This document shows, piece after piece, positions 14,022 through 47,284 of a DNA stretch of 47,284 bases. A program made the position numbers and the translations under genes. The first letter of the stretch is position 1; every line of letters begins with the position of its first letter. The stretch is from Fimicolochytrium jonesii (lineage: Eukaryota): positions 2,108,001 through 2,155,284 of the forward strand of contig NW_026515669.1 in assembly GCF_025526975.1 (NCBI RefSeq), in the 5' to 3' direction. A model generated the notes under the pieces. The model was not told where the DNA came from and made no database searches. It saw only the letters and a program-made list of their open reading frames with translations.

Positions 14022-14342
14022 GAAAGTACCAGATGTGCATACCAGAACCCCGACAGCCCTGGTATCTTATCCGGTATCTGCTCCGCGCGAAAACATCGAA
14101 AACGAGTCGAGAATATCGATTGCGCTACATCATCTGGTAACTTGGTAACTTCCAAAGCCATTTCTGTCACAGGAAAAGAAAGTGAGAAACAACAATCTCT
14201 TCTAATGGAATAATTCTCCAGATCAAAATCTTGATATGAAGTTACCAGATTACCAGATGCTATACGGCACTCGACTTTTCTGAAGCCTTCGTGTGCCGAA
14301 ACTACCAGCAAAGATACCAGCCGTCTGGTAATCTGGTAACTT
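14022..14342. repeat. Origin-like module copy 2 (diverged direct repeat of 13261..13582) directly upstream of the primase-helicase
   Basis: Same 12 boxes in the same order and nearly the same spacing. Shared blocks ccgcgcgaaaacatcgaaaacga, atcgattgcg, tcaaaatcttga, ttcgtgtgccgaa and tctggtaatctggtaa. Confidence 0.85.
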
Positions 14343-17300
14343 CGCCTCTGCGGTTTGGATGTGGAGCAGGGCAAGGGGATCGCATACAGGACATGGGCAA
14401 CTCGAGAAAGCAAACGCGTTTGAAACTCGAGAATAAAAAACGTTGCCCAAAGTTAGGCAATGAGGACGAGAATAAGATTGCGATGACAACTGACGCATAC
14501 AAAAGCTTGGTCAGGCAGTTGCGCATGGACAAGAGCTCCCAAGCACATCAGACGCACTTCAACTTCCCGGGCTTCACTGGAATATTTGCAAGGTTGAGCG
14601 TGCCCTCTGAAAAGGAGCGCAGGGATCTCTACGACATACTCTTCGCTGTGATTCAGCAGGCAGGTGACGACATTCGGGCGAGCCCATGCGTTCTGTGTGA
14701 ACGCATACCACAAGATGGTCGATTTCGACTGTTCTTCGATTGGGATGTGAAGCTTCACGAAGTCGGAACCGATGACGATATTTTGCTGACCAACCAAACC
14801 GTCGTGCAGGGAATCAGGGACGAACTTGTTGCATCCTACGGTGCCGATTATGGAGATACGCCTCTTCTGGTCTCTGTTGGCTGCGCCCAGAAAATTCATG
14901 TCAACTGTCCCGGCATTGTCGTGACGAAAGAAGTTGCGGTCTTCCTATGTGAGCGTTTGCGGGTACGACTGATCACAAAGGCATGTCTTGCAGTGGACAA
15001 AGCAGATAAGTGTCTCGACACTTCGGTCTACAATGGTCAGGGCCTCCGCCTGCTTGGATGTCACAAGGGAAGCAGCTTGAAAGGCGCCGATGTTGAGCCA
15101 TACGAAGCGCGATTCGGCGCTGGATCCTTCCGGTACGCTTATACCCCCGTGGACAGTGTTTCACTTGAGCGGCGCGCGATTCGGAGAGAGGATCTAGACG
15201 ACTACAGCATCATTCCACAGCCTCATGCAACAGTGACCTTGCTTTGTGACGAGGCTGATGGAGACCTTCAATCGCGTAGAACTGCGAAAGTCCCCCGACA
15301 AGCATTGAAGAGGGGAGTTTCAGCCGAGGAGAGCGACATGACAGTCGATTGCAACAGCAACACAGAGGTGTTTTCAGGACCGGAGTACAGCGCGGTGCTA
15401 GGGAAAGCGACCAGCTTTTTCTCCTCCCAGTACGGGCTGACGGAGCAGTTTCACTCGATCATTGTACAAAGGGCCAAGAAAGCTCTCATTTTCAGTACGA
15501 AGAGCCGCAGGTGCTACATCAAAGGCGATACCCACGGGAGCAACAATCCCTACATCGTCATCTCCAGCTATGGGTGTCGCTTCAAGTGTCCAAGCTTTGA
15601 ATGCAGTAAGGTGCCTACCCGGAGTATCCCTCTCTGCGATCTGCCGGAAGAGCTTTCGGAAGCGTACACGAAGGTCTTCCATGTGGAATCTTCAGACAAG
15701 GGAAGGAAGGCGTTTGCGTCTGGAGTTCGCGCCCTGGCAAAAACGCTCCCGAGTATGAACTTGAAGTTCAAGCCCGCAGAGGTTCGCAAAAGTGGAGTTG
15801 GCTGGGTGTGCGTGCTGCAGGAGAACACTCACTGTCCCAGTCATCAAAAGGAGCACGACCGTCCTGAGAACTATCTCATCGCGAATTCTAACGGGTGCTT
15901 TGTCGGCTGCAGGCAAGATCCTGCGCTGTTCTTTCCGTCCGGTGCTTCTGGTCTACAGCTGCCAAGCAGTGTGACCAACGTGCTCTTCCAGTATGTAGAC
16001 AAGCGCACCTTCATTGTTGACAGCGGGACTTTAGCGGGCAACACCCCATTCATAGACGAGATCAAAGACGAGACACAGCATTTCGAGGACGCGGAGGCCA
16101 ACCGGCTGTTCAAGAGTACATTTCGAGGAACGCACTCGGCGTACGCAAAGTACCTGTACCACTCTAAAGGCGCTCTCTTTATCTGCAATCGGGAAAGACA
16201 AGCTGCTTGGCACGTGTTCAACTGCCACCGCTGGAAGTATGACCCGGGCGCGGCATACCTAATGCGCTACCTCTCGTCCGATGAGAACCTCGAACCGTAC
16301 CTCAGAGCGCGCAAGCTCTACAGTCAGGGCGACGAGGTCTCATGGAAGATTGCGTTCAACATCGACAAGCTCATTACGAGCTTCCAAAACCATGGGAGCC
16401 AGCGGGGTTTTGTTGACGAATGTGCGTTGTTTTTCAACGAACGCAGCGATGAGCTCGAACGGAACCTGGATGGGAACCGGTATCTGATCGGTTTTGCCAA
16501 TGGGGTCTTTGACTTGAGGGAGCGCATGTTTCGAAAAGGGGAGCCGAACGACTATGTCAGCATGACTGTGCATTACGAGTACGGTGAGCCAATCGAAGAA
16601 GACGTCGGCGACGTGCTCGCCTTTATCAGCAAGATTCTTCCCGATGATGCGGTTCGCCACTACGTACTCAAGCTCCTGGGATCTTGTGTTTCTGGGGATA
16701 CTCGCGACGAAAAGTTCCATGTGTGGATCGGAGGCGGAGCGAACGGCAAGAGTACGCTGCTCTCGCTTGTCGCTGCGGCTCTGGGTCAGTACGCAGCTTC
16801 GATGAAGGCCACGATGTTGACCCAAAAGTCACCTCCCGCTGACAACGCAACTCCAGGAATGAACAAAGCAGTTGGGGCACGTATGGTTGCCATGCAGGAA
16901 ACAAACTCTGGCGAAAGCGTCAACGAATCGCTTCTGAAGAGCTCACTGGGTGGTGACAAGATAGACTACCGCCCATTGTTCAAAGAGGCGCGAGAGTTCT
17001 ATCCTCATTTCAAGATGATCCTCTGCACGAACAACCCCTTGACCATAAAAGGGACGGACCACGGAATCTGGCGGAAGATCCGAATGGTTCCTTTTGAAAG
17101 CCAGTTTGTGGCCAAGATTGGCAGGATAGCCCACAAGGAAGGAAACGCATCAGTTGAGCCCATCGAACACTTGATTCAAGATGCCCAAGGAGATGCTGTG
17201 TTTGAGATGGACAAGAGCGTTAAAGACAAGATCGACGGGCCTTGGAAAGTCGCTTTCATGCACATGCTTATACGATATTATTACGTGTGGCAGGAGGAGG

Positions 17301-17611
17301 GGCTTGACGAGGTCCCGGACAAAATCGCTCAATACAATCGGGACTACAAGGAATCACAAGATATGGTTGGGAAGTTCCTAGAAGAAAAGTGTCAAATCGG
17401 TGCAGAGTACAAGGTGCACAGCAAGCCGCTATGGGAAGCTTTCTTCGACTGGCAGAAGACTGAAGCCCACCAGATCCGTCAACACGACTTCAGCCAGAAG
17501 CTCAAGCGAGATTCAAGGTTCACCTACTCCAAAGGGGTTGATATTAACGGGAAGAACAGTTGTGGTTACGCTGGGCTTCAGGTAATTGGAACTGCGGCAG
17601 CGTGTATGTGA
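14291..17611 (+). CDS. AEP primase (NCLDV/herpes/PrimPol type) - Zn fingers - D5-like SF3 helicase - C-terminal winged helix fusion
   Basis: 1106-aa intronless ORF; likely ATG 14393 or 14483. AEP motifs FRLFFDWDVK, KIHVNCPG and LDTSVY..GLRLLGCHK. Two Cys/His clusters: CYIKGDTHGSN..CRFKC..C and CPSHQKEHDR..CFVGC. D5_N LIGFANGVFDL..FRKGEPNDYVSM. Walker A GGGANGKS, Walker B VAMQE, motif C LCTN, DHGIWRKIRMVPF. C-terminus FLEEKC..LWEAFFDW..FSQKLK..GYAGLQ. Confidence 0.95.
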   Translation: MCRNYQQRYQPSGNLVTSPLRFGCGAGQGDRIQDMGNSRKQTRLKLENKKRCPKLGNEDENKIAMTTDAYKSLVRQLRMDKSSQAHQTHFNFPGFTGIFARLSVPSEKERRDLYDILFAVIQQAGDDIRASPCVLCERIPQDGRFRLFFDWDVKLHEVGTDDDILLTNQTVVQGIRDELVASYGADYGDTPLLVSVGCAQKIHVNCPGIVVTKEVAVFLCERLRVRLITKACLAVDKADKCLDTSVYNGQGLRLLGCHKGSSLKGADVEPYEARFGAGSFRYAYTPVDSVSLERRAIRREDLDDYSIIPQPHATVTLLCDEADGDLQSRRTAKVPRQALKRGVSAEESDMTVDCNSNTEVFSGPEYSAVLGKATSFFSSQYGLTEQFHSIIVQRAKKALIFSTKSRRCYIKGDTHGSNNPYIVISSYGCRFKCPSFECSKVPTRSIPLCDLPEELSEAYTKVFHVESSDKGRKAFASGVRALAKTLPSMNLKFKPAEVRKSGVGWVCVLQENTHCPSHQKEHDRPENYLIANSNGCFVGCRQDPALFFPSGASGLQLPSSVTNVLFQYVDKRTFIVDSGTLAGNTPFIDEIKDETQHFEDAEANRLFKSTFRGTHSAYAKYLYHSKGALFICNRERQAAWHVFNCHRWKYDPGAAYLMRYLSSDENLEPYLRARKLYSQGDEVSWKIAFNIDKLITSFQNHGSQRGFVDECALFFNERSDELERNLDGNRYLIGFANGVFDLRERMFRKGEPNDYVSMTVHYEYGEPIEEDVGDVLAFISKILPDDAVRHYVLKLLGSCVSGDTRDEKFHVWIGGGANGKSTLLSLVAAALGQYAASMKATMLTQKSPPADNATPGMNKAVGARMVAMQETNSGESVNESLLKSSLGGDKIDYRPLFKEAREFYPHFKMILCTNNPLTIKGTDHGIWRKIRMVPFESQFVAKIGRIAHKEGNASVEPIEHLIQDAQGDAVFEMDKSVKDKIDGPWKVAFMHMLIRYYYVWQEEGLDEVPDKIAQYNRDYKESQDMVGKFLEEKCQIGAEYKVHSKPLWEAFFDWQKTEAHQIRQHDFSQKLKRDSRFTYSKGVDINGKNSCGYAGLQVIGTAAACM

Positions 17612-21626: not shown

Positions 21627-22949
21627 TGGCCCGCGCCAAAAGATTATTTCCCGCAGCATCGCTGAAGATAACGAAGCTTCCCTTGCATACTATCCTTGAA
21701 GTTGGTCGGACGCGGAGCCGAGGGTGAAATCTAGTAACCCCATATACCTCTTCACGTCTCAGCATCTCAGCACCTGTCTTTCGCACATGCTTTCACTTTC
21801 CGACCATCCAAGTGGCCGTTGTTTTATTCCATAGCTTCAGCACATGATTGTCATTAGCGTTTGCTGGTTTTGCGGCGTTGGCTTGGGCATTTGTCTGTGG
21901 TATGCCTCGTAAATCGTCCCTCTTGTTCGAAGAAGGTTCGATCGAAAATCCTGACCAGGAACCAGAAGCGAAGCTCGGGCAATCCCAAGTGCCAATCATC
22001 CTCCCAGTCTTGCTCCCAAAAATGGACCGAAGTTACGTTGTCCCCTTGATTCTGCGTCGATGATGCGCGGAGTATGCTACAATGGGCGCCCTCGCTCATG
22101 CATGTCGGCACGGAGCCAAACAGCGTTGGACCGCCGGTGTGGCTACGTATCTAGAATATCAACTATCGCGCGTAGGACAGGTTCCGCTTTGTATTCTTTT
22201 TGATTAAACCCGTTTTGACACAGCAAAGGAGCGTGGCCAAGCTGTGGTGGTGGCATGAAGACACTCCCAACGTGCATTTCGTCGCCACCGTACATTAAAG
22301 ATCTATCCGGTCGATTGGCTGCTCGGAGCCACATCTGCAGACTTTCCATCGGCTGCTCCGCTCCTCCTACTTTCCATCGGCAAAGTATGTACGACCAAGG
22401 AAAGAATATTCCCCTGTTGTTATATTCCGCTGGGGCATACGGTCCTATTGGTCCCGAGCTATATTCTTACGACTGCCGGTAACGCTTGGGTCGTCGACGC
22501 GGCAGCCCCTTGCTCAAGTCGCACAACATGGGTCAATGATGTGAGTGAGGCCCGGCATTCGCATCCAGAAAGTACTCCTTGCATAAAGCAAGAGAAATTG
22601 CGCTCTTGATAAAAGATCCATGACTCGGACCAGCTAACCCCGCTACTGCATCGGTAAACACATCATTTTCTCGTTGTTGCACATTGGTTCTATTCTCATT
22701 TTCTCCTTCTAGCTCCGAGCGGGCTCAAGATGGTCAGCCGGGTTCCCTTAAACATGAGCAAACGGAGTGCAGCTCTCAAAGATGCAAACCCCAGAAGCAC
22801 TCAGCGGTGCCACTCAATATCACACGTTTGTCATAATCTGCCACCAGATTCCCCGTCATTTTGAGTATGGTGTGGGGGATGGAACGATCAGCCTTCCCCA
22901 AAAAGAAAAGCCTATATACAAGTAGCTTGGTCAGAGCCGGGCCTCAAGA

Positions 22950-23564
22950 ATGTTCATTTATCATACAAGCATATGGCTTCTTCTCCTGATAGCACTATGT
23001 GTCCTATGGGCTGCGCCTCCTGCACTTGCATGGGAATGGCACAAGGGCTGGAACGAGACCGGCCAGCGGAAAAGTCCCGAAGAGGACCCCAAACCTATAG
23101 CTGGAGCTGGCATCCAGCATGACTTCAACGCGATATCTCGCCGCATTCCAGGCAGTAATGCCGTGCCTGTTTTCCGTCGCTTACTTTGTGGTATGAGACC
23201 AGGCTCCGATGGGGAAGGCGCTATGTACATATTCAGGAATGGTCTGCAACATAGATACTCGATGGATGAGGACCGCTGGAAAGTGGGATGCACCAGCCTC
23301 AAGGTGGGAGTGAAGAAACGCTTGGCGCAATGGGGAAGACAGTGTGGCCGCTCGCCTGTGCTGATCGGTGAATGGAAGGTCAAGCACCACAGATTATGTG
23401 AGAACTTGATACATTCCGAGCTGAAGTTGAAGGGTAAGTGGCTGGGAAACGTCCAATGTGAGTGCAGAACCCAGAAAGGCCATTGCGAGTGGTTCCGGGG
23501 CCCGTTAGCTGACCTTCAGGAAACCATCGGATTCTGGGTGAACTACGTGAATCAACACTATTGA
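22950..23564 (+). CDS. T5orf172/MUG113 (GIY-YIG superfamily) domain protein with N-terminal signal-like peptide
   Basis: GAMYIF...WKVGCT...KRLAQWGRQC...ENLIHSELK...CECRTQKGHCEWF. N-terminus IWLLLLIALCVLWAAPPALA. TATA-like ctatataca at ~22912. Confidence 0.85.
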   Translation: MFIYHTSIWLLLLIALCVLWAAPPALAWEWHKGWNETGQRKSPEEDPKPIAGAGIQHDFNAISRRIPGSNAVPVFRRLLCGMRPGSDGEGAMYIFRNGLQHRYSMDEDRWKVGCTSLKVGVKKRLAQWGRQCGRSPVLIGEWKVKHHRLCENLIHSELKLKGKWLGNVQCECRTQKGHCEWFRGPLADLQETIGFWVNYVNQHY

Positions 23565-32883: not shown

Positions 32884-32904
32884 GGGTTAGGGTTAGGGTT
32901 GGGG
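32884..32904 (+). repeat. Interstitial telomere-repeat relic
   Basis: gggttagggttagggttgggg in the same orientation as the terminal array. Confidence 0.75.
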
Positions 32905-37190: not shown

Positions 37191-37754
37191 CAGTGGTTCG
37201 CCCGTCGCAGCCCGATCGATCGCTTTTTGTACTTCAAGCTCACATGTGGAATCCAAGAAGGGTAGCTTTGGACGCAATAGGTCCTCATCTTAAATGCACC
37301 TTTCATCCCTTTCTTGTTTTTGGAAGTTGCCGACTAGAAGTAGGGCTGCTCCAATAGATTCCTTATTCGTTGCTAACGCTGCTTATTACAAGGGTCTCTT
37401 ACGCCGGCTATTTTCATCACTACTGTGCGAGCTTCTCTGCTGACATTGTCTGTGTAACTCATACTGCCGTATTCAAGAAGTATGGAAGCTCGTGTCCGAG
37501 CACAACACAACACCCTTGGCGCTCCCTGCCTTCCAGTTGATGTACATGATTGTCGGCTGTATGGTGCTTGGGCGTCTATGGTAGTATGGGTTTAATGGTA
37601 TTAGTCAGGAATGATTCATGGGCATACAATTGGGTATGCTGGCATGATGGATCAAAGTGGTAGTAGCAAGTTTGCCTGCTTGGCAACCAAGGGCCAAATT
37701 TGACCAAGTTCGGCTCCAGCGAGGGCTGTCAAACTTGGGACCTGCTTAAAGCTT

Positions 37755-37813
37755 AGGTCTAAGGGCGTAAGGGTTAGGGTTAGGAACAGGGTTAGTGAAC
37801 GCGTAGGGGTTAA
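37755..37813 (+). repeat. Degenerate interstitial telomere-repeat relic
   Basis: taagggcgtaagggttagggttaggaacagggttagtgaacgcgtaggggttaa. Confidence 0.65.
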
Positions 37814-38093
37814 GCCAGGTATGTGGTTGGACGTGCTCTCGTGCTCTCCGTTGATGTTTATTCTTAGGGTGGTTGAATGGCATTGATTTGGTAGTGGCTT
37901 GTGATAGGTTCGTTCAGGTTCAGTATGATCAACGGCCGCCGCATAAGCGTCTCTCCCTCCTCCATGTGGGTCTGCAGGGCATCACATGGAGAATACGGAC
38001 GGATGTGTCCGTTTCCAATAGCGATAGAAGTGGGAATAGCGAGTCTTACCGAGAGACAGCAGTACAGCCTTTATCATGTCCTTGATTATCTCC

Positions 38094-38447: not shown

Positions 38448-39146
38448 GTTTGTTTCACGTGCGACGCTGAAGGTTGCAAAGGGATGTTTCTATCTTGATA
38501 CAGTACAAATGGATTAAAATGTGACCCGCAAACGCACTTAGCTGCTTCATCTCCGAACTGCAATCCGGCCATGGAACTAAAAGGTACAGCTCGGGTTGGT
38601 CATCGGCCCTTCTCTTTTGACTGGTGAATCGGTGTATGGAGGGAGATCATCCAATCTCACAGCGTGTGGGGTTGCTGAGCACGCGGCTGCAGGGATAGCT
38701 GCACTAACCACCCATGCTTTCCCTGCTTCAAGGATCTCGTTCGGAACAAGCAGCACGATGTGGCCTGCGGGAACATGGCAGTACCGTCCACCCCAAGGCG
38801 CGGCGTATCCTGGTAAGCTAGCTGTTGTCACAGTATCTGAAGGTGGGATAGACATGGCTTTCGAGCCGTTCAGAATGGGACGGAGGATATGATCTGAGGC
38901 GCAGCAGCCTTTCCGTCGCTAGTTGCCGTGTATACCAAGTCCGCTCACTGACACATTCTGACAGCGCGTCACAAACGCGCGGCAAGAAGTGTACGCTATA
39001 CAGTCTCCTGCCCCATTCCGTTGAACGTTGGACAAACGTAGCTTCAGTGCGACGGGAATCCCCGAGATAGAAAACAAGAAGCGTTTCGAACTTTTTTTTT
39101 CTATCTCTATGAAAAACAAAGGTATCACCTTCTTTCTGAAGAAAAC

Positions 39147-39512
39147 ATGCACTTTGGAGACACTGATAGATCGGTCACTGAGGAAAGAGACCTTGGAGGA
39201 CTCATCAATACTCCAAACACTAAGCAACTGCTTCGAGAGTTTATCGAAGTTCATTTGATGGTGCGTGATCTTCAACGGCGCTTGAAAGATGCCAAAAGTA
39301 GTCGGCAAGCAGTGGAAAAGGACCTGGCGCAGGTCTTTACTGAGGCGGAGGTTCAGACGGTCGACATCCCGGGCTTTCGTTTATACCGGTACGATCAACG
39401 GCTGGTTCCGTACCATCTGCCTAGGCGACCGAACACTTGCACCACCGTGAAGCAAACCACGCACGCTGGTAGAAAACGCATGTGTAGAAGCCTCCTGAAG
39501 TTCCGGCTCTAG
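39147..39512 (+). CDS. DUF5760-like small coiled-coil protein (family 4, copy b); last gene before the telomere
   Basis: LLREFIEVHLMVRDLQRRLKDAKSSRQAVEKDLAQVFTEAEVQTVDIPGFRL resembles the giant-virus DUF5760 pattern (recalled, not searched). Paralogue at 35558..35779. Confidence 0.6.
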   Translation: MHFGDTDRSVTEERDLGGLINTPNTKQLLREFIEVHLMVRDLQRRLKDAKSSRQAVEKDLAQVFTEAEVQTVDIPGFRLYRYDQRLVPYHLPRRPNTCTTVKQTTHAGRKRMCRSLLKFRL

Positions 39513-39555
39513 AGCGCTCGCCGAAACGAAACGCAACCAACAAAGAATAAAATCT

Positions 39556-39589
39556 TTTCTGAAAGATAGAATCCTCTGTCTTTCAGAAA
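39556..39589 (+). terminator. 15-bp stem hairpin downstream of the DUF5760-like gene
   Basis: tttctgaaagataga-atcc-tctgtctttcagaaa (14/15 paired plus one G-U), preceded by AATAAA at ~39546. Confidence 0.5.
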
Positions 39590-39690
39590 GGACAAGACAT
39601 TGCGTGTAAACATGCCTACCTCGTCTTGCAAAAGCCTTTCCATCCAGGCCTTCACAAAGAAGAAGCTTTATGAGATCATACCTGCAGCTT

Positions 39691-39722
<32 letters not shown>

Positions 39723-40014
39723 GGTTAGGGTTAGGGTTAGGGTTAGGGTTAGGGTTAGGGTTAGGGTTAGGGTTAGGGTTAGGGTTAGGGTTAGGGTTAG
39801 GGTTAGGGTTAGGGTTAGGGTTAGGGTTAGGGTTAGGGTTAGGGTTAGGGTTAGGGTTAGGGTTAGGGTTAGGGTTAGGGTTAGGGTTAGGGTTAGGGTT
39901 AGGGTTAGGGTTAGGGTTAGGGTTAGGGTTAGGGTTAGGGTTAGGGTTAGGGTTAGGGTTAGGGTTAGGGTTAGGGTTAGGGTTAGGGTTAGGGTTAGGG
40001 TTAGGGTTAGGGTT
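39691..40014 (+). repeat. Telomeric (TTAGGG)n array 1 (proximal)
   Basis: About 54 near-perfect units. Confidence 0.99.
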
Positions 40015-41799
40015 ACAAGACCCCCTGGGTTGGGTTTTATTTTTGGGTTGCCTGGAACCCTAGGGACTTAGAAATTTTCGGGTTTTTTGGCTTTTGGGTG
40101 TGTTCTACAGTTCAAATTCTTGACTCTGAGGGGTGTGGTGGCGGGGGGTGTTGCGCACCTAGGCAAGTCAGGGGGGACTAGGTGTGCAAGGGCAAGTGAT
40201 GGGTCATATGGGTGGTGGTGCGGGTACGGGGGGGGGGGGGGCAGGGGTGCCAATAGGGGAGGGGGGGGGGTTGATATAAAGGGGAAATATATGTTATATA
40301 TACGTTTTAGGACTTGTGCAAATTGGGATTTTTTAGTGCCGATCCGGAGTTGGCGTCCTAATTAAAAGTTGGCCCCATATCATATTCTCTAATTGAAGTA
40401 CTCTCGGATTGGCAATCCGTGCAGAAACGGCTTCAGAAACTTAGAAAAACGAAATTTTCACGCGACGGGGGGTAAAAAGTTGGAAAATGTGGTGATATCT
40501 CAACATCTGGCTGACTATCCAGTGGAGGGCACTTAATGAAAGTTGATTGTAGCCTATGGTTTGCATAGCTGATGTGGTAGCAAATCTTGTGTAACCTTGC
40601 TTTTGGCTGAAGAACAGGGCCCCTTTTCAATTCTCAAGTAGTGACCCCCAAGACCTCCTAACAAAAGACACGAGTACGTATGTGCAGGCAAAGGGGTTTG
40701 GCTGTGTTCTCCAGTAAACATTTTGTGATTCCGCTGTGCATCGTAGACTGTTTGTAGGACCGTTGCGGAATGTCATTTACCAAAACTGTTGAACATTTTC
40801 CGTTTAAAGCAGTGTTCTACAGTTTGTCCATGCAGGTTAGAGCACGTGACCTGGGCTTGCTTGCAGGGTATGCAGAGTGAGAGGGTTGGGGTTAGAGATT
40901 TCCCAGATCACTTATTAAATTCAGCCAAACTGTCTCTGTCATGGAACATTTAAAATGGTGGAAAGTAGTATTGCATTTATTGATTTAGAGTACATTGGAA
41001 AAGCGCACATTCAGAAAAGGGTTTTGGTGTAAAGTTATCAACGACATTCAACAGTACTAAAGGACTTCCGCAAGCATGTCACGGACTTGGTTCTGTCCAA
41101 AAGTCGTACGGCACTCAGGGTACCTGGCGCAGCGGAGACGGAAACGATGCTGACCGCCAATGCTATGAAAAGCTGAGCCTCCACAGTTGGGACATTGAAG
41201 CTGATCACGATGCTGATGGAAGAGTTCACAGATATTGCCAATGGGAGCAGCATCAGGCACTTCCCCATCCCCATGACCCCACCAAGCACGAGCAGGATCA
41301 ATGACGGGTGCAATGCCTTTGAACCATCCGGGATTGAAACCAAAAGAGTTGAGAACATCTCGGAAGCGCTGACAGTCTGTCACAGTAGTCTGTCTATTGC
41401 GATCTCCTCTGAATAGAACTCTGGTGGCAGCGTCCATGATGCCATTGATGAGACTGTAGTACTCTTCCACCGGCACAAGCTTCAAGGAGTTTGCGCCCAT
41501 GTGCTGGAAAATGGTCTCGATCTGGTCCAAATGGAGATTCAAAACCATCTGTTCTGCTGATTCCAACCTGGCGCACTGAACTCGCACTTCAACTCGCATG
41601 CCAGTAATGTGGAGCGGGTGACCGTTGAGCCATTGACGTAAACCTCTCAGTGTCTCACTGCGATCACCAAGGCTGGACTTGGTTTGGGGCATTCGCGAAG
41701 ACAAAGTCGAAGAGTAGGCTTTGAGCGCATGAACAAGCTTTGGGTAGCAAGTAACCCGAACATTGGCGTGACCCGCAATGTCAAAGCGGGTGGACCCAA
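40015..41799 (-). mobile_element. Telomere-inserted element A, copy 1 (5'-truncated retroelement-like)
   Basis: Starts GGGTT|ACAAGACCCCCTGGG; flanked by TTAGGG arrays; near-identical to 42284..44040, 44937..45509 and 46076..46651. Confidence 0.85.
41057..41799 (-). CDS. Element A ORF with C-terminal C4 Zn-ribbon; open up to the telomere junction (5'-truncated)
   Basis: QLQCPNCGGSAFHSIGGQHRFRLRCARYPECRTTF. The frame has no stop from 41799 to 41057. AATAAA on the minus strand at ~40976-40981. Confidence 0.7.
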
Positions 41800-42283
41800 G
41801 GGTTAGGGTTAGGGTTAGGGTTAGGGTTAGGGTTAGGGTTAGGGTTAGGGTTAGGGTTAGGGTTAGGGTTAGGGTTAGGGTTAGGGTTAGGGTTAGGGTT
41901 AGGGTTAGGGTTAGGGTTAGGGTTAGGGTTAGGGTTAGGGTTAGGGTTAGGGTTAGGGTTAGGGTTAGGGTTAGGGTTAGGGTTAGGGTTAGGGTTAGGG
42001 TTAGGGTTAGGGTTAGGGTTAGGGTTAGGGTTAGGGTTAGGGTTAGGGTTAGGTTAGGGTTAGGGTTAGGGTTAGGGTTAGGGTTAGGGTTAGGGTTAGG
42101 GTTAGGGTTAGGGTTAGGGTTAGGGTTAGGGTTAGGGTTAGGGTTAGGGTTAGGGTTAGGGTTAGGGTTAGGGTTAGGGTTAGGGTTAGGGTTAGGGTTA
42201 GGGTTAGGGTTAGGGTTAGGGTTAGGGTTAGGGTTAGGGTTAGGGTTAGGGTTAGGGTTAGGGTTAGGGTTAGGGTTAGGGTT
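41800..42283 (+). repeat. Telomeric array 2
   Basis: About 80 TTAGGG units, one TTAGG variant. Confidence 0.99.
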
Positions 42284-44040
42284 ACAAGACCCCCTGGGTT
42301 GGGTTTTATTATTGGGTTGCCTGGAACCCTAGGGACTTAGAAATTTTCGAGTTTTCTGGCTTTTGGGTGTGTTCTACAGTTCGAATTCTTGACTCTGAGG
42401 GATGTAGTGGTGGGGGGGTGTTGCGCACCTAGGCAAGTCGGGGAGGACTAGGTGTGCAAGGGCAAGTGATGGGTCATATGGGTGGTGGTGCGGGTACGGG
42501 GGGGGGCAGGGGTGCCAATAGGGGGGGGGGGGGGTTGATATAAAGGGGACATATATGTTATATATACGTTATAGGACTTGTGCAAATTGGGATTCTTATA
42601 GTGCCGATCCGGAGTTGGCGTCCTAATTGAAAAGTTGGACCCATATCATATTCTCTAATTGAAGTACTCTCGGATTGGCAATCCGTGCGGAAACGGCTTC
42701 AGAAACTTAGAAAAACGAAATTTTCACGCGACGGGGGGTAAAAAGTTGGAAAATGTGGTGATATCTCAACATCTGGCTGACTATCCAGTGTAGGGCACTT
42801 AATGAAAGTTGATTGTAGCCTATGGTTTGCATGGCTGATGTGGTAGCAAATCTTGTGTAACCTTGCTTTTGGCTGAAGAACAGGGCCCCTTTTCAATTCT
42901 CAAGTAGTGACCCCCAAGACCTCCTAACAAAAGACACGAGTACGTATGTGCAGGCAAAGGGGTTTGGCTGTGTTCTCCAGTAAACATTTTGTGATTCCGC
43001 TGTGCATCGTAGACTGTTTGTAGGACCCTTGCGGAATGTTATTTACCAAAACTGTTGAACATTTTCCGGTTAAAGCAGTGTTCTACAGTTTGTCCATGCA
43101 GGTGAGAGCACGTGACCTGGGCTTGCTTGCAGGGTACGCAGAGTGAGAGGGTTAGGGTTAGAGATTTCCCAGATCACTTATTAAATTCAGCCAAACTGTC
43201 TCTGTCATGGAACATTTAAAATGGTGGGAAGTAGTATTGCATTTATTGATTTAGAGTACATTGGAAAAGCGCACATTCAGAAAAGGGTTTTGGTGTAACG
43301 TTATCAACGGCATTCAACAGTACTAAAGGACTTCCGCAAGCATGTCACGGACTTGGTTCTGTCCAAAAGTCGTACGGCACTCAGGGTACCTGGCGCAGCG
43401 GAGACGGAAACGATGCTGACCGCCAATGCTATGAAAAGCTGAGCCTCCACAGTTGGGACATTGAAGCTGATCACGATGCTGATGGAAGAGTTCACGGATA
43501 TTGCCAATGGGAGCAGCATCAGGCACTTCCCCATCCCCATGACCCCACCAAGCACGAGCAGGATCAATGACGGGTGCAATGCCTTTGAACCATCCGGGGT
43601 TGAAACCAAAAGAGTTGAGAACATCTCGGAAGCGCTGACAGTCTGTCACAGTAGTCTGTCTATTGCGATCTCCTCTGAATAGAACTCTGGTGGCAGCGTC
43701 CATGATGCCATTGATGAGACTGTAGTACTCTTCCACCGGCACAAGCTTCAAGGAGTTTGCGCCCATGTGCTGGAAAATGGTCTCGATCTGGTCCAAATGG
43801 AGATTCAAAACCATCTGTTCCGCTGATTCCAACCTGGCGCACTGAACTCGCACTTCAACTCGCATGCCAGTAATGTGGAGCGGGTGGACTTGGTTTGGGG
43901 CATTCGCGAAGACAAAGTCGAAGAGTAGGCTTTGAGCGCATGAACAAGCTTTGGGTAGCAAGTAACCCGAACATTGGCGTGACCCGCAATGTCAAAGCGG
44001 GTGGACCCAAATCCCTCACCAAGGATGGTGAGCATGGGAA
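42284..44040 (-). mobile_element. Element A, copy 2 (extends ~30 nt further 5' but carries a 55-nt internal deletion)
   Basis: Same proximal junction as copy 1. Lacks accgttgagc...caccaaggctg (41621-41675 in copy 1). Extra sequence atccctcaccaaggatggtgagcatgggaa at the distal end. Confidence 0.85.
43323..44035 (-). pseudogene. Element A ORF, frameshifted by the 55-nt deletion
   Basis: ATG 44035 (MLTILGEGFGSTRFDIAG...). Restoring 55 nt gives 768 nt, i.e. 255 aa in frame with the Zn-ribbon C-terminus. Confidence 0.7.
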
Positions 44041-44105
44041 GGGTTAGGGTTAGGGTTAGGGTTAGGGTTAGGGTTAGGGTTAGGGTTAGGGTTAGGGTTA
44101 GGGTT
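44041..44105 (+). repeat. Telomeric array 3
   Basis: About 11 TTAGGG units. Confidence 0.98.
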
Positions 44106-44884
44106 ACAGGACTGTTCCCGGTTATGGGTTATTTTTGGCCATCCAAAAAGTGTCAAATAAAGTTGCTAGCAATGTTCAGGGGCATCTTACTGTAATGTGC
44201 TTCAAATCTTGGGGCATGTTTTCCACTCAATGCCCCGGGAAAATCTGTTTTTCCGATTTTTTACTATGAAAATATTGCCAAAATGCATTTTCTGAAACTC
44301 TGAGTGGATGGATTTCGCTTAAAGTGAGATATGTCTCAGAAAACATCCCCAAAAACATCTAGGAACCTTCATCTACTCTAGTATTCATCAACTCCTGGCA
44401 CTTTTTGTTTCCAGGCAATATGGGGGTGTTCTCCAGTTGGCGGCGAATGACTCATTTTTGCTATGATCTCGGGGACGGAGGCGGAAGCGAAGTAGAGAAG
44501 ACAGGGCGAGAGTGATAGGCGACAAGAGATTTTATTGGCAAAACAAGAAACAAGGACTAGAACAGGAGATGAGAAGAACTGGTGTTGATCTGCTGGGGAG
44601 GAAGGGAACGGACAAAGAGAGGCCGGCTATTTATAGATAGGCAACCCAGCAGATCAGAGAACTACAACAACAAGAGGGGACTGGGGGGGCATCAGCTATG
44701 CTCCTAGAGCGTGCGTGGCGAGCGTAGAGAGCATTGCTACAGCTGCTGGCTATGGGGAAGTAGTGGGGGGTGTGGAGAAGCCGAGGGGGGGATTGGCGAA
44801 ATGAGAGGAGAGAGGAGGAGTGGCGATATTGCAAGAGGATTGGCAAAATGAGAGGAGAGAGGGGGAGTGGCATTGACATTGACA
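44106..44884 (-). mobile_element. Telomere-inserted element B, copy 1 (longest)
   Basis: Starts GGGTT|ACAGGACTGTTCCC; its proximal part is repeated at 45546..45799 and 46688..46918. Strand is inferred from the truncation polarity. Confidence 0.8.
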
Positions 44885-44936
44885 GGGTAGGGTTAGGGTT
44901 AGGGTTAGGGTTAGGGTTAGGGTTAGGGTTAGGGTT
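44885..44936 (+). repeat. Telomeric array 4
   Basis: gggtaggg followed by about 8 TTAGGG units. Confidence 0.97.
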
Positions 44937-45509
44937 ACAAGACCCCCTGGGTTGGGTTTTATTATTGGGTTGCCTGGAACCCTAGGGACTTAGAAATTTT
45001 CGAGTTTTCTGGCTTTTGGGTGTGTTCTACAGTTCGAATTTTTGACTCTGAGGGAGGTAGTGGCGGGGGGTATTGCGCACCTAGGCAAGTCGGGGAGGAC
45101 TAGGTGTGCAAGGGCAAGTGATGGGTCATATGGGCGGTGGTGCGGGTACGGGGGGGGGGGGTTGATATAAAGGGGACATATATGTTATATATACGTTATA
45201 GGACTTGTGCAAATTGGGATTTTTCTAGTGCCGATCCGGAGTTGGCGTCCTAATTGAAAAGTTGGCCCCATATCATATTCTCTAATTGAAGTACTCTCGG
45301 ATTGGCAATCCGTGCGGAAACGGCTTCAGAAACTTAGAAAAACGAAATTTTCACGCGACGGGGGGTAAAAAGTTGGAAAATGTGGTGATATCTCAACATC
45401 TGGCTGACTATCCAGTGTAGGGCACTTAATGAAAGTTGATTGTAGCCTATGGTTTGCATAGCTGATGTGGTAGCAAATCTTGTGTAACCTTGCTTTTGGC
45501 TGAAGAACA
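44937..45509 (-). mobile_element. Element A, copy 3 (3'-terminal ~570 bp only)
   Basis: Same proximal junction; truncated at ctgaagaacaggg. Confidence 0.85.
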
Positions 45510-45545
45510 GGGTTAGGGTTAGGGGTTAGGGTTAGGGTTAGGGTT
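45510..45545 (+). repeat. Telomeric array 5 (contains a TTAGGGG variant)
   Basis: gggttagggttaggggttagggttagggttagggtt. Confidence 0.95.
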
Positions 45546-45799
45546 ACAGGACTGTTCCCGGTTATGGGTTATTTTTGGCCATCCAAAAAGTGTCAAATAA
45601 AGTTGCTAGCAATGTTCAGGGGCATCTTACTGTAATGTGCTTCAAATCTTGGGGCATGTTTTCCACTCAATGCCCCGGGAAAATCTGTTTTTCCGATTTT
45701 TTACTATGAAAATATTGCCAAAATGCATTTTCTGAAACTCTGAGTGGATGGATTTCGCTTAAAGTGAGATATGTCTCAGAAAACATCCCCAAAAACATC
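45546..45799 (-). mobile_element. Element B, copy 2 (~254 bp)
   Basis: Matches 44106..44359; truncated at aaaaacatct. Confidence 0.85.
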
Positions 45800-46075
45800 T
45801 TAGGGTTAGGGTTAGGTTAGGGTTAGGGTTAGGGTTAGGGTTAGGGTTAGGGTTAGGGTTAGGGTTAGGGTTAGGGTTAGGGTTAGGGTTAGGGTTAGGG
45901 TTAGGGTTAGGGTTAGGGTTAGGGTTAGGGTTAGGGTTAGGGTTAGGGTTAGGGTTAGGGTTAGGGTTAGGGTTAGGGTTAGGGTTAGGGTTAGGGTTAG
46001 GGTTAGGGTTAGGGTTAGGGTTAGGGTTAGGGTTAGGTTAGGGTTAGGGTTAGGGTTAGGGTTAGGGTTAGGGTT
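45800..46075 (+). repeat. Telomeric array 6
   Basis: About 46 units with two TTAGG variants. Confidence 0.98.
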
Positions 46076-46651
46076 ACAAGACCCCCTGGGTTGGGTTTTA
46101 TTATTGGGTTGCCTGGAACCCTAGGGACTTAGAAATTTTCGAGTTTTCTGGCTTTTGGGTGTGTTCTACAGTTCGAATTTTTGACTCTGAGGGAGGTAGT
46201 GGCGGGGGGTATTGCGCACCTAGGCAAGTCGGGGAGGACTAGGTGTGCAAGGGCAAGTGATGGGTCATATGGGCGGTGGGTGCGGGGGTACGGGGGGGGG
46301 GGGGTTGATATAAAGGGGACATATATGTTATATATACGTTATAGGACTTGTGCAAATTGGGATTTTTCTAGTGCCGATCCGGAGTTGGCGTCCTAATTGA
46401 AAAGTTGGCCCCATATCATATTCTCTAATTGAAGTACTCTCGGATTGGCAATCCGTGCGGAAACGGCTTCAGAAACTTAGAAAAACGAAATTTTCACGCG
46501 ACGGGGGGTAAAAGTTGGAAAATGTGGTGATATCTCAACATCTGGCTGACTATCCAGTGTAGGGCACTTAATGAAAGTTGATTGTAGCCTATGGTTTGCA
46601 TAGCTGATGTGGTAGCAAATCTTGTGTAACCTTGCTTTTGGCTGAAGAACA
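46076..46651 (-). mobile_element. Element A, copy 4 (same truncation as copy 3)
   Basis: Near-identical to 44937..45509. Confidence 0.85.
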
Positions 46652-46687
46652 GGGTTAGGGTTAGGGGTTAGGGTTAGGGTTAGGGTT
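46652..46687 (+). repeat. Telomeric array 7 (identical to array 5)
   Basis: Same length and same TTAGGGG variant as 45510..45545. Confidence 0.95.
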
Positions 46688-46918
46688 ACAGGACTGTTCC
46701 CGGTTATGGGTTATTTTTGGCCATCCAAAAAGTGTCAAATAAAGTTGCTAGCAATGTTCAGGGGCATCTTACTGTAATGTGCTTCAAATCTTGGGGCATG
46801 TTTTCCACTCAATGCCCCGGGAAAATCTGTTTTTCCGATTTTTTACTATGAAAATATTGCCAAAATGCATTTTCTGAAACTCTGAGTGGATGGATTTCGC
46901 TTAAAGTGAGATATGTCT
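46688..46918 (-). mobile_element. Element B, copy 3 (~231 bp)
   Basis: Truncated at gagatatgtct. Confidence 0.85.
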
Positions 46919-47284
46919 GGGTTAGGGTTAGGGTTTAGGGGTTAGGGTTAGGGTTAGGGTTAGGGTTAGGGTTAGGGTTAGGGTTAGGGTTAGGGTTAGG
47001 GTTAGGGTTAGGGTTAGGGTTAGGGTTAGGGTTAGGGTTAGGGTTAGGGTTAGGGTTAGGGTTAGGGTTAGGGTTAGGGTTAGGGTTAGGGTTAGGGTTA
47101 GGGTTAGGGTTAGGGTTAGGGTTAGGGTTAGGGTTAGGGTTAGGGTTAGGGTTAGGGTTAGGGTTAGGGTTAGGGTTAGGGTTAGGGTTAGGGTTAGGGT
47201 TAGGGTTAGGGTTAGGGTTAGGGTTAGGGTTAGGGGGTTAGGGTTAGGGTTAGGGTTAGGGTTAGGGTTAGGGTTAGGGTTAGG
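46919..47284 (+). repeat. Terminal telomere (TTAGGG)n
   Basis: The G-rich strand runs 5'->3' to the end of the window; about 60 units. Confidence 0.99.

What the first reader, a model, noticed from the sequence alone, without database searches (positions are those of the whole stretch)
40005..44125. Two unrelated elements share one junction: the predicted RNA 3' end GUC(U/C)UGUAACCC mimics a telomerase template
Seen: A begins GGGTTACAAGAC and B begins GGGTTACAGGAC, each followed about 10-15 nt later by GGGTT(TT)ATT; otherwise they look dissimilar. On the sense strand A has AATAAA about 20 nt before the junction. Inference: both RNAs end in UAACCC, anneal to the G-overhang and are copied by the same enzyme. 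That could be a trans-acting PLE RT recognising a shared 3' signal, or telomerase RT itself using them as alternative or read-through templates.
Basis: partly seen in the sequence, partly recalled or inferred. Interest (0 to 1): 0.7.

Follow-up and report, generated by a model that had tools for sequence, protein, structure and literature searches.

The report
Telomere-joined elements with plasmid-type nickase
At a chromosome end of what is likely a chytrid fungus, cut-short pieces of two different DNA elements are stacked between telomere repeats and all start with the same few letters; one carries part of a gene predicted to fold like the DNA-nicking enzymes that start copying of bacterial plasmids, so the elements likely attach to chromosome tips as DNA, by a route not found in our literature searches, and not by telomerase copying their RNA.

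Summary
The junction is real. All 7 inserts in this TTAGGG telomere (4 of A, 3 of B) start GGGTTA|CARGAC (chance for two families about 0.001-0.004). A and B also share a second 18-nt motif. Their far ends vary and were healed by telomerase-type repeat addition. UAACCC is only the flanking telomere; the phase equals the end that a fungal UAACCCUAA template would leave. New here: A's ORF is the C-terminal half of a ~510-aa fungal family. Its model best matches Rep_trans rolling-circle nickases (Foldseek E 3e-4, VIA Z 7.3), with near-invariant D, D, Y, E in Rep_trans order; profile comparison shows no link. No hammerhead and no RT motif was seen. Best reading (0.45): a Rep-type tyrosine nickase from an intact copy elsewhere joins the element's 5'-CARGAC strand to telomeric 3' ends, with B as passenger. 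Rivals: endonuclease-less Penelope RT (0.25), recombination only (0.17), MoTeR-like LINE (0.08), telomerase templating (0.03). No genome or RNA was available.

The parts
39691..40015 (+). First (proximal) TTAGGG tract, added to subtelomeric DNA; ends GGGTTA at the A1 junction
40010..40021 (+). Shared junction GGGTTA|CAAGAC of A1 (candidate nick/joining site)
40016..41799 (-). Element A copy 1: fixed end at 40016, about 1.04 kb non-coding, then the C-terminal part of the ORF; cut at 41799 and capped by telomere (1-nt in-frame seed)
40032..40041 (+). GGGTTTTATT box (holds A's minus-strand AATAAA at 40036-40041); B equivalent GGGTTATT
40095..40112 (+). Second motif shared with B (16 of 18); core GTGTTCTMCAGT repeated at 40704 and 40812; candidate binding site
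41057..41797 (-). 5'-truncated ORF (P0001, 246 aa): keeps the predicted catalytic Tyr, the RxE motif and a C4 zinc ribbon; lacks the two N-terminal predicted metal-binding aspartates
41800..42284 (+). Interstitial telomere tract (485 nt)
42285..44044 (-). Element A copy 2: 97.7% to A1, 55-nt frameshifting deletion in the ORF, reaches about 30 nt further into the gene, healed at a 5-nt in-frame seed (AGGGT)
44045..44106 (+). Interstitial telomere tract
44101..44112 (+). Shared junction GGGTTA|CAGGAC of B1
44107..44884 (-). Element B, longest copy, no long ORF; shared motif at 44421-44438; 44459-44884 looks like a solo LTR (TG...CA, TATA at 44628-44635, AATAAA at 44531-44536 on minus)
44938..45512 (-). 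A3, cut at a 4-nt AGGG seed
45547..45800 (-). B2, 100% identical to the start of B1, cut at a 1-nt seed
46077..46654 (-). A4: same end point and same 37-nt variant tract as A3, so A3-tract-B2 and A4-tract-B3 are one duplicated unit
46689..46918 (-). B3, cut with no in-frame seed
46919..47284 (+). Terminal TTAGGG tract running off the window

Best explanation
A and B are the fixed, centromere-side ends of two telomere-attached elements, and A carries part of a gene predicted to encode a Rep_trans-type tyrosine nickase that would, from an intact copy elsewhere, join both elements to chromosome tips as DNA. Proposed steps. (1) Inferred: the enzyme binds the shared end signals and nicks the G-rich strand of a donor at GGGTTA^CARGAC, staying bound to the 5' end. 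(2) Inferred: the strand is displaced toward the chromosome end and can run through further tracts and elements. (3) Inferred: a telomeric 3'-OH ending GGGTTA, as left by telomerase or by a nick at TTA^GGG, attacks the phosphotyrosine and fixes the junction. (4) Shown as a pattern: the far end is variable and is healed by new repeats at 0-5-nt seeds. B would be a non-autonomous passenger. All copies in this window are truncated and cannot make the full enzyme.
For: A's ORF has 64 hits at E<=0.001 (2 zinc-ribbon-only hits dropped); the best are 462-523 aa and P0001 covers their C-terminal half. All 9 of 30 looked-up representatives that carry an organism name are fungi. A full-length relative (P0009, 45% identical) models at pLDDT 91, its residues 1-288 at 95. 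Top matches are Rep_trans initiators: Foldseek 4cwc E 3.1e-4 prob 0.99 and 4cwe E 6.5e-4, the only 2 at E<=0.001; VIA 4cij Z 7.3, 183 aligned, rmsd 4.1, then 4cwc 5.7, then TBPs. Invariant or near-invariant residues lie on separate predicted strands in Rep_trans order: D7 24/24, D9 23/24, D148 44/44, G183 53/53, K195 53/57, Y197 58/58, R or K199 49/58, R247 57/61, E249 61/61 (denominators are rows with a residue there), against RepSTK1 D9, D116, Y179, K181, R194, E196. Rep_trans bonds to the 5' end and a 3'-OH reverses it, which matches the fixed end being the 5' end of the strand joined to the G-strand. The family behaves as mobile: 5 loci 91-98% identical in Pseudozyma flocculosa, 2 identical adjacent gene models in Fimicolochytrium jonesii, OTU fusions in 8 of 39 scanned, no RT domain in those 39. 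No hammerhead. 4 of 5 independent truncations with known continuation have in-frame seeds.
Against: The array architecture is equally predicted by Penelope, MoTeR and recombination models. Terminons carry Rep ORFs as cargo beside an RT. The distal parts of A and B are missing, so an RT could lie there. The fold match is moderate (TM about 0.31; Z under 8, which the tool says can be a common arrangement), and there is no sequence-level link (hhalign 0.2% and 0.6%; no Rep_trans hit in Pfam, PDB sequences, PHROGs or plasmids). Motif register was matched by order, not by 3D superposition. Motif I lacks the Rep_trans arginine, and A and P0009 have Thr at the K195 column. No significant hairpin at the junction (z between 1.4 and -2.0), although pT181-type origins nick in a hairpin loop. 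No helicase seen in A or B. Only two families at one telomere were examined.
Confidence: 0.45

Rival explanations
1. Endonuclease-less Penelope-like terminal retrotransposition (Athena/Coprina/Terminon type): RNAs running into the telomere end in (UAACCC)n, pair with the G-overhang and are copied by a Penelope RT in trans; the Rep-like ORF is cargo; telomerase caps the truncated cDNA.
For: Polarity, 5' truncation capped by telomere repeats, head-to-tail arrays and Rep accessory ORFs are all described for Terminons (PMC6431247 section 8); Coprina elements sit the same way at fungal ends (PMC13159263). B1 has a TATA box in the sense direction that could drive read-through, as HeT-A promoters do (recalled).
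Against: No hammerhead core next to the telomere complement; no stable RNA fold (z from 0.9 to -0.8); no RT-like motif in the window; no RT domain in 39 scanned homologs; no pLTR-type direct repeat beyond a 19-nt motif.
Confidence: 0.25
2. No dedicated transposition: A and B are passive subtelomeric units with a remote common origin of their ends, spread by break-induced replication or D-loop copying, truncated by erosion and healed by telomerase; the nickase gene is a resident of the unit.
For: A3-tract-B2 and A4-tract-B3 share end point and tract variant, the signature used for D-loop amplification in MoTeR arrays (PMC7367193). B copies are 100% identical. Terminal truncation with 1-7-nt seeds is documented there.
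Against: Does not explain why two otherwise unalignable sequences keep the same first six letters and phase, or why a nuclease-type active site is conserved across chytrids and basidiomycetes.
Confidence: 0.17
3. Passengers of a telomere-specific non-LTR retrotransposon with a restriction-like endonuclease (MoTeR1/MoTeR2, FoTeR, Cnl1 type), inserted by target-primed reverse transcription.
For: MoTeRs and FoTeRs lie 5' end outward, head to tail, between TTAGGG tracts, mostly truncated; MoTeR2 is a non-autonomous partner; degenerate telomere-like repeats occur at their ends, as in the first 30 nt here.
Against: MoTeR1 and MoTeR2 share 77 bp at the 3' end, while A and B share only about 6 plus about 10 nt; no RT or endonuclease of that type seen in the window.
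Confidence: 0.08
4. Telomerase RT itself copies these RNAs as alternative templates, or reads through its own RNA's template boundary.
For: The junction phase equals the 5' boundary of the Ustilago template UAACCCUAA, and 5 of 7 independent new tracts begin GGG, a sixth ambiguously. B is non-coding and cannot be excluded as related to the unknown chytrid telomerase RNA.
Against: A is protein-coding and about 1.8 kb; telomerase needs pseudoknot and CR4/5 domains and has boundary elements; the phase match follows for anything joined to a telomerase-finished end; no Rfam match.
Confidence: 0.03

Closest known systems
Rep_trans (PF02486) rolling-circle initiators and MOBT relaxases: RepSTK1 (4CIJ), RepDE (4CWC), inovirus initiators; archaeal Rep-Arvir
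   Same: Predicted TBP-like fold; D, D, E on separate strands plus Tyr in the same order; VDW..VT start and RxE motif
   Different: Eukaryotic (fungal); no profile-level similarity; motif I without Arg; Y-x-R/K-x-x-H instead of YxKxxE; long helical insert between Tyr and Glu; C4 zinc ribbon and often OTU; sits in telomere arrays, not on a plasmid
Endonuclease-deficient Penelope-like elements (Athena, Coprina, Terminons)
   Same: 5' end outward, fixed 3' end on telomere repeats, 5' truncation capped by repeats, head-to-tail arrays, Rep ORFs as cargo in Terminons
   Different: No RT seen, no hammerhead, no pLTR; the terminal ORF is a predicted Rep_trans-fold nickase (Terminon Reps are recalled as HUH type, not checked)
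MoTeR1/MoTeR2 (Magnaporthe), FoTeR (Fusarium)
   Same: Fungal TTAGGG arrays with two partner families, same polarity, truncation with short seeds, duplicated units
   Different: No RT or restriction-like endonuclease; partners share short motifs only, not 77-860 bp
HUH rolling-circle transposons (IS91, Helitrons, Replitrons)
   Same: Tyrosine transesterase logic, one fixed and one loose end, non-autonomous partners with similar termini, no target duplication needed
   Different: Enzyme fold is Rep_trans, not HUH; target is the telomere; no fused helicase seen

Membership tests
Rep_trans (PF02486) superfamily | TBP-like crescent beta-sheet catalytic fold | tested here: met
   Model of relative P0009 1-288: Foldseek 4cwc E 3.1e-4 prob 0.99, TM 0.31; VIA 4cij Z 7.3, 183 aligned, rmsd 4.1. 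Moderate scores; done on a 45%-identical relative
Rep_trans (PF02486) superfamily | D-D-E metal triad on separate strands and catalytic Tyr on a strand, motifs N', I-IV in order | tested here: met
   D7/D9, D148, G183, Y197, R247-x-E249 near-invariant and on predicted strands; matched by order, no 3D superposition; the window's copies keep only Tyr and RxE
Rep_trans (PF02486) superfamily | Sequence or profile match to PF02486 or Phage_CRI | tested here: not met
   No such Pfam hit among the 25 of 46 families shown for 65 members; hhalign probability 0.2% and 0.6% against 7 Rep_trans sequences. Not filed as a PF02486 member
Rep_trans (PF02486) superfamily | Nick site in a hairpin loop next to a binding repeat | tested here: inconclusive
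   Weak junction-spanning hairpins only (-2.6 and -2.5 kcal/mol, z 1.4 and -0.2); a repeated shared motif exists
Rep_trans (PF02486) superfamily | Metal-dependent nicking with 5'-phosphotyrosine | not testable with these tools
   Needs biochemistry
EN-deficient Penelope-like elements / Terminons | Penelope-type RT in the element or genome | tested here: inconclusive
   None in the window; elements truncated; no genome held
EN-deficient Penelope-like elements / Terminons | Hammerhead ribozyme next to the reverse-complement telomere stretch | tested here: not met
   Strict and relaxed core scans: 0 in A1, A2, B1 on both strands; no Rfam hammerhead
EN-deficient Penelope-like elements / Terminons | 5' end outward, 5' truncation capped by telomere repeats, tandem arrays | tested here: met
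EN-deficient Penelope-like elements / Terminons | RNA ending in telomere complement | not testable with these tools
   No RNA holder listed
MoTeR/FoTeR telomeric non-LTR retrotransposons | RT plus restriction-like endonuclease; partners share long terminal sequence | tested here: not met
   A's ORF is unrelated; A and B do not align beyond short motifs; an autonomous partner elsewhere is untested
Helitron / Replitron / IS91 | HUH transposase | tested here: inconclusive
   No HUH protein among the listed fold matches, which does not exclude one; top matches are Rep_trans
Telomerase RNA or mimic | Internal 1.5-repeat template, boundary element, pseudoknot, CR4/5 | tested here: inconclusive
   No Rfam match, no stable fold near the junction; the one paper search for a chytrid telomerase RNA listed only a fission-yeast genome paper

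The most novel reading that the evidence does not exclude
A new class of eukaryotic DNA transposon: a Rep_trans-fold tyrosine transposase that ligates the element's 5'-CARGAC strand straight onto telomerase-finished GGGTTA-3' chromosome ends, mobilises non-coding passengers carrying the same end signals, and so lengthens telomeres in alternation with telomerase without any reverse transcriptase.
Probability: 0.4. Interest if true: 0.9.

Novelty: categorically new. Interest (0 to 1): 0.72.

Why it matters
The telomere-embedded arrays in the papers read here (Athena, Coprina, Terminons, MoTeR, FoTeR, HeT-A) are all retroelements, and a 2026 paper describes Rep_trans-fold enzymes from bacteria and archaea only (PMC13107129). 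A fungal family of predicted Rep_trans nickases in telomere arrays would add a DNA route to telomere invasion and a new transposase fold in eukaryotes. It would also warn that 'fixed 3' end plus 5' truncation at telomeres' is not proof of retrotransposition. The shared six-letter junction gives an exact oligonucleotide substrate, so the main claim can be tested with one protein and a few oligos. If the Penelope or recombination reading wins, the junction is ordinary and the rating falls to a new variant of a known kind, though the protein family stays undescribed.

Tried and rejected
No whole genome is held, so other telomeres, an intact A, an RT and the telomerase RNA could not be searched. 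Word-indexed homolog search of P0001 found none; the profile version found 3; the Atlas gave nothing for P0001 and only a sub-threshold lead for P0009 (0.82, G2P-like). The junction pattern is absent from viral contigs. Related-locus scans found nothing in viral or prokaryote contigs and one decayed, non-telomeric fragment in metagenomes (L001), which neither supports nor tests the telomere link. No RNA holder listed. The one DNA run holds two 151-nt pieces of A's ORF and does not cover a proximal junction. Hammerhead, Rfam and fold-stability tests were negative. The whole-protein fold search was weaker (E 6.8e-3, Z 6.9) than the domain alone; the viral library gave nothing at E<=0.001. A shared 12-mer by itself is unremarkable (164 of 1,000 shuffles); it counts only because it is A's repeated motif, and that choice was made after seeing it. 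The two primary Penelope papers (2007, 2017) were not held. No complex prediction was run.


Full report
Setting. The window ends in a TTAGGG telomere with eight tracts from 39691 to 47284. No genome is held. The host is likely a spizellomycetalean chytrid: the primase-helicase ORF at 14240-17611 has its closest named relatives in Geranomyces variabilis (71%) and Thoreauomyces humboldtii (66%).

Observation. All 7 inserts between tracts start GGGTTA|CARGAC: A at 40010, 42279, 44932, 46071 and B at 44101, 45541, 46683. A copies are 92-99% identical and B copies 100%, so only two independent ends are compared. A null model gave the same phase plus at least 5 of 6 equal letters in 444 of 400,000 draws, or 1,518 of 400,000 with the phase fixed; the first 30 nt align better than all but 25 of 3,000 shuffles. 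The GGGTT(TT)ATT box is there in both; the AATAAA only in A. Whole A and B do not align (162 of 200 shuffles as good), but they share an 18-nt motif at 16 of 18 positions (0 of 300 shuffles; core absent from 20,000 shuffles of B), whose core occurs three times in each long A. That motif was picked after the fact.

Far ends. They vary: A 1784, about 1760, 575 and 578 nt; B 778, 254 and 230 nt. A soil-metagenome contig matches A2 up to 44044 and then goes on with 11 non-telomeric letters, so A2 is a truncation healed at a 5-nt in-frame seed. Of 5 independent truncations whose continuation is known, 4 have in-frame seeds of 1-5 nt and 1 has none, as reported for telomerase healing of MoTeRs (PMC7367193, passages). 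A3 and A4 share end point and the same 37-nt variant tract before B, so they are one duplicated unit. Five of 7 independent new tracts begin GGG, one is ambiguous and one begins TTA. A template like the Ustilago 5'-UAACCCUAA-3' (PMC9564094, passages) would add GGGTTA and stop at TTA; applying it to a chytrid is inference. The junction phase, and so the 'UAACCC', then needs no template mimicry: it is what a finished telomere end looks like. The element-specific signal is CARGAC plus the two downstream motifs.

What A encodes. A's minus-strand ORF (P0001) runs toward the centromere and is cut at its 5' end. Pfam gives only a weak zinc ribbon. The full HMMER search gave 64 hits at E<=0.001, 15 at 1e-10; I dropped P0064 (a topoisomerase) and P0071, which match the zinc ribbon only. 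The best hits are 462-523 aa. Of 30 representatives looked up, 9 carry organism names, all fungi: Fimicolochytrium, Phlyctochytrium, Tilletia (3), Pseudozyma (2), Ustilago, Tremella. P. flocculosa has five loci 91-98% identical. Two family loci there, PSFLO_02845 and PSFLO_02858, are 13 tags apart on contigs of different length, which would place both near scaffold ends if tags run in order (inference). F. jonesii has two identical adjacent gene models. OTU domains occur in 8 of 39 scanned and RT in none.

Fold. P0009 (45% identical to P0001) models at pLDDT 91 and its first 288 residues at 95, pTM 0.89. The only Foldseek matches at E<=0.001 are RepDE/RepDN structures (4cwc 3.1e-4, 4cwe 6.5e-4; TM about 0.31). 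VIA ranks RepSTK1 first (Z 7.3, 183 aligned, rmsd 4.1), RepDE second (5.7), then TBPs; 3 of 48,161 chains reach Z 5 and none Z 8. Rep_trans has motifs N'(D), RxD, T/SxY/ExG, YxKxxE and W/LxRxE with a D-D-E metal site and all catalytic residues on strands (PMC4797284 and PMC5714925, passages; confirmed in a 7-sequence alignment). The fungal family has D7 24/24, D9 23/24, D148 44/44, G183 53/53, K195 53/57, Y197 58/58, R/K199 49/58, H202 59/59, R247 57/61 and E249 61/61, in that order and on predicted strands. Against this: no profile-level similarity, no arginine in motif I, and Thr at column 195 in A and P0009. I could not superpose coordinates. I read it as working like a Rep_trans nickase (about 0.8) but do not file it in PF02486. 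Both long A copies lack the two aspartate motifs and A2 has a 55-nt frameshifting deletion, so neither can be the active source.

Mechanism. Rep_trans enzymes bond to the 5' side of a nick and a free 3'-OH reverses the bond. In the window the fixed end of each element is the 5' end of the strand that continues the G-strand. A nick at GGGTTA^CARGAC in a donor, strand displacement outward and attack by a telomeric GGGTTA-3'-OH would give exactly these junctions, regenerate the site, allow composite units such as A3-tract-B2, and let a non-coding B ride along on shared signals. These steps are inferred; only the junctions, polarity, truncations and the protein family are shown. The same polarity follows from reverse transcription of an RNA primed on the G-overhang, the described route for Athena, Coprina and Terminons, and Terminons can carry Rep ORFs (PMC6431247 section 8 and passages; PMC13159263 and PMC5537684, passages). 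Their marker, a hammerhead beside the telomere complement, was not found, nor an RT-like motif among 520 ORFs of 50 aa or more (8 loose matches, none in an RT-like context, none in A or B). The elements are truncated, however, so an RT is not excluded. MoTeR and FoTeR arrays (passages) look the same but their partners share far longer ends. Recombination certainly shaped part of the array. Telomerase as the copying enzyme is least likely (PMC4993307, passages). Odds: nickase 0.45, Penelope RT 0.25, recombination only 0.17, MoTeR-like 0.08, telomerase 0.03.

What is in print. A search for Rep_trans with transposon and eukaryotic listed 14 papers, none on such an element by title and abstract start; Rep_trans with fungi and telomere gave 0; a six-term search for rolling-circle fungal telomeric transposons since 2020 gave 2 versions of one paper on other elements, by listing only. 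PMC13107129 (abstract, outline, passages) treats the fold as bacterial and archaeal. Replitrons use HUH (PMC10288648, passages). The library lacks most subscription papers, including the 2007 and 2017 Penelope papers, and no supplements were read; that Terminon Reps are HUH-type and that HeT-A has a 3' promoter are recalled. Earlier notes of this scan, seen after I had noted the Rep reading, describe Rep_trans-like genes in telomere-linked fungal and moss units. They are unchecked, and sequence look-ups did not tie them to this family, so they are not counted as support.

Verdict. Observation confirmed; interpretation partly supported. The more interesting fact is the predicted Rep_trans-type nickase in A, which offers a DNA-level reading of the shared junction that can be tested directly. 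Interest 0.72.

Noticed in passing
window 1-39690: The subtelomere looks virus-derived: AEP plus D5 primase-helicase ORF 14240-17611 with chytrid homologs, T5orf172/MUG113 ORF 22926-23564, weak DUF7307 ORF 39042-39512, many ORFs without Pfam match.
   Followed up: partly
window 34422, 34972, 35808, 39556, 39581: Recurrent TTTCTGAAA motif near short ORFs, forming a hairpin at 39552-39593; could be a promoter or terminator motif of the virus-like region.
   Followed up: no
window 44459-44884: The distal part of B1 looks like a 426-bp solo LTR (TG...CA, TATA, AATAAA, 47-nt tandem repeat) that ends exactly where a GGGTAGGG variant telomere begins, with no target duplication.
   Followed up: partly
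window 43149-43161 (A2) and 40884-40896 (A1): Internal telomere-like GGGTTAGGGTTAG (GGGTTGGGGTTAG in A1) between A's terminal non-coding part and its ORF; may be an old junction with a different following sequence.
   Followed up: no
window 32885-32902 and 37750-37815: Short and degenerate telomere-like runs inside the subtelomere, same strand as the telomere, without CARGAC.
   Followed up: no
L001 1308-2315: A decayed homolog of A's gene lies back to back with a fragment resembling a CACTA-type transposase (resemblance recalled, not tested) in an AT-rich contig without telomere repeats.
   Followed up: no
window 40016-41056 and 44107-44884: Non-coding parts of both elements are G-rich and C-poor on the telomeric G-strand (G about 0.30, C about 0.17), with long G runs in A.
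   Followed up: no
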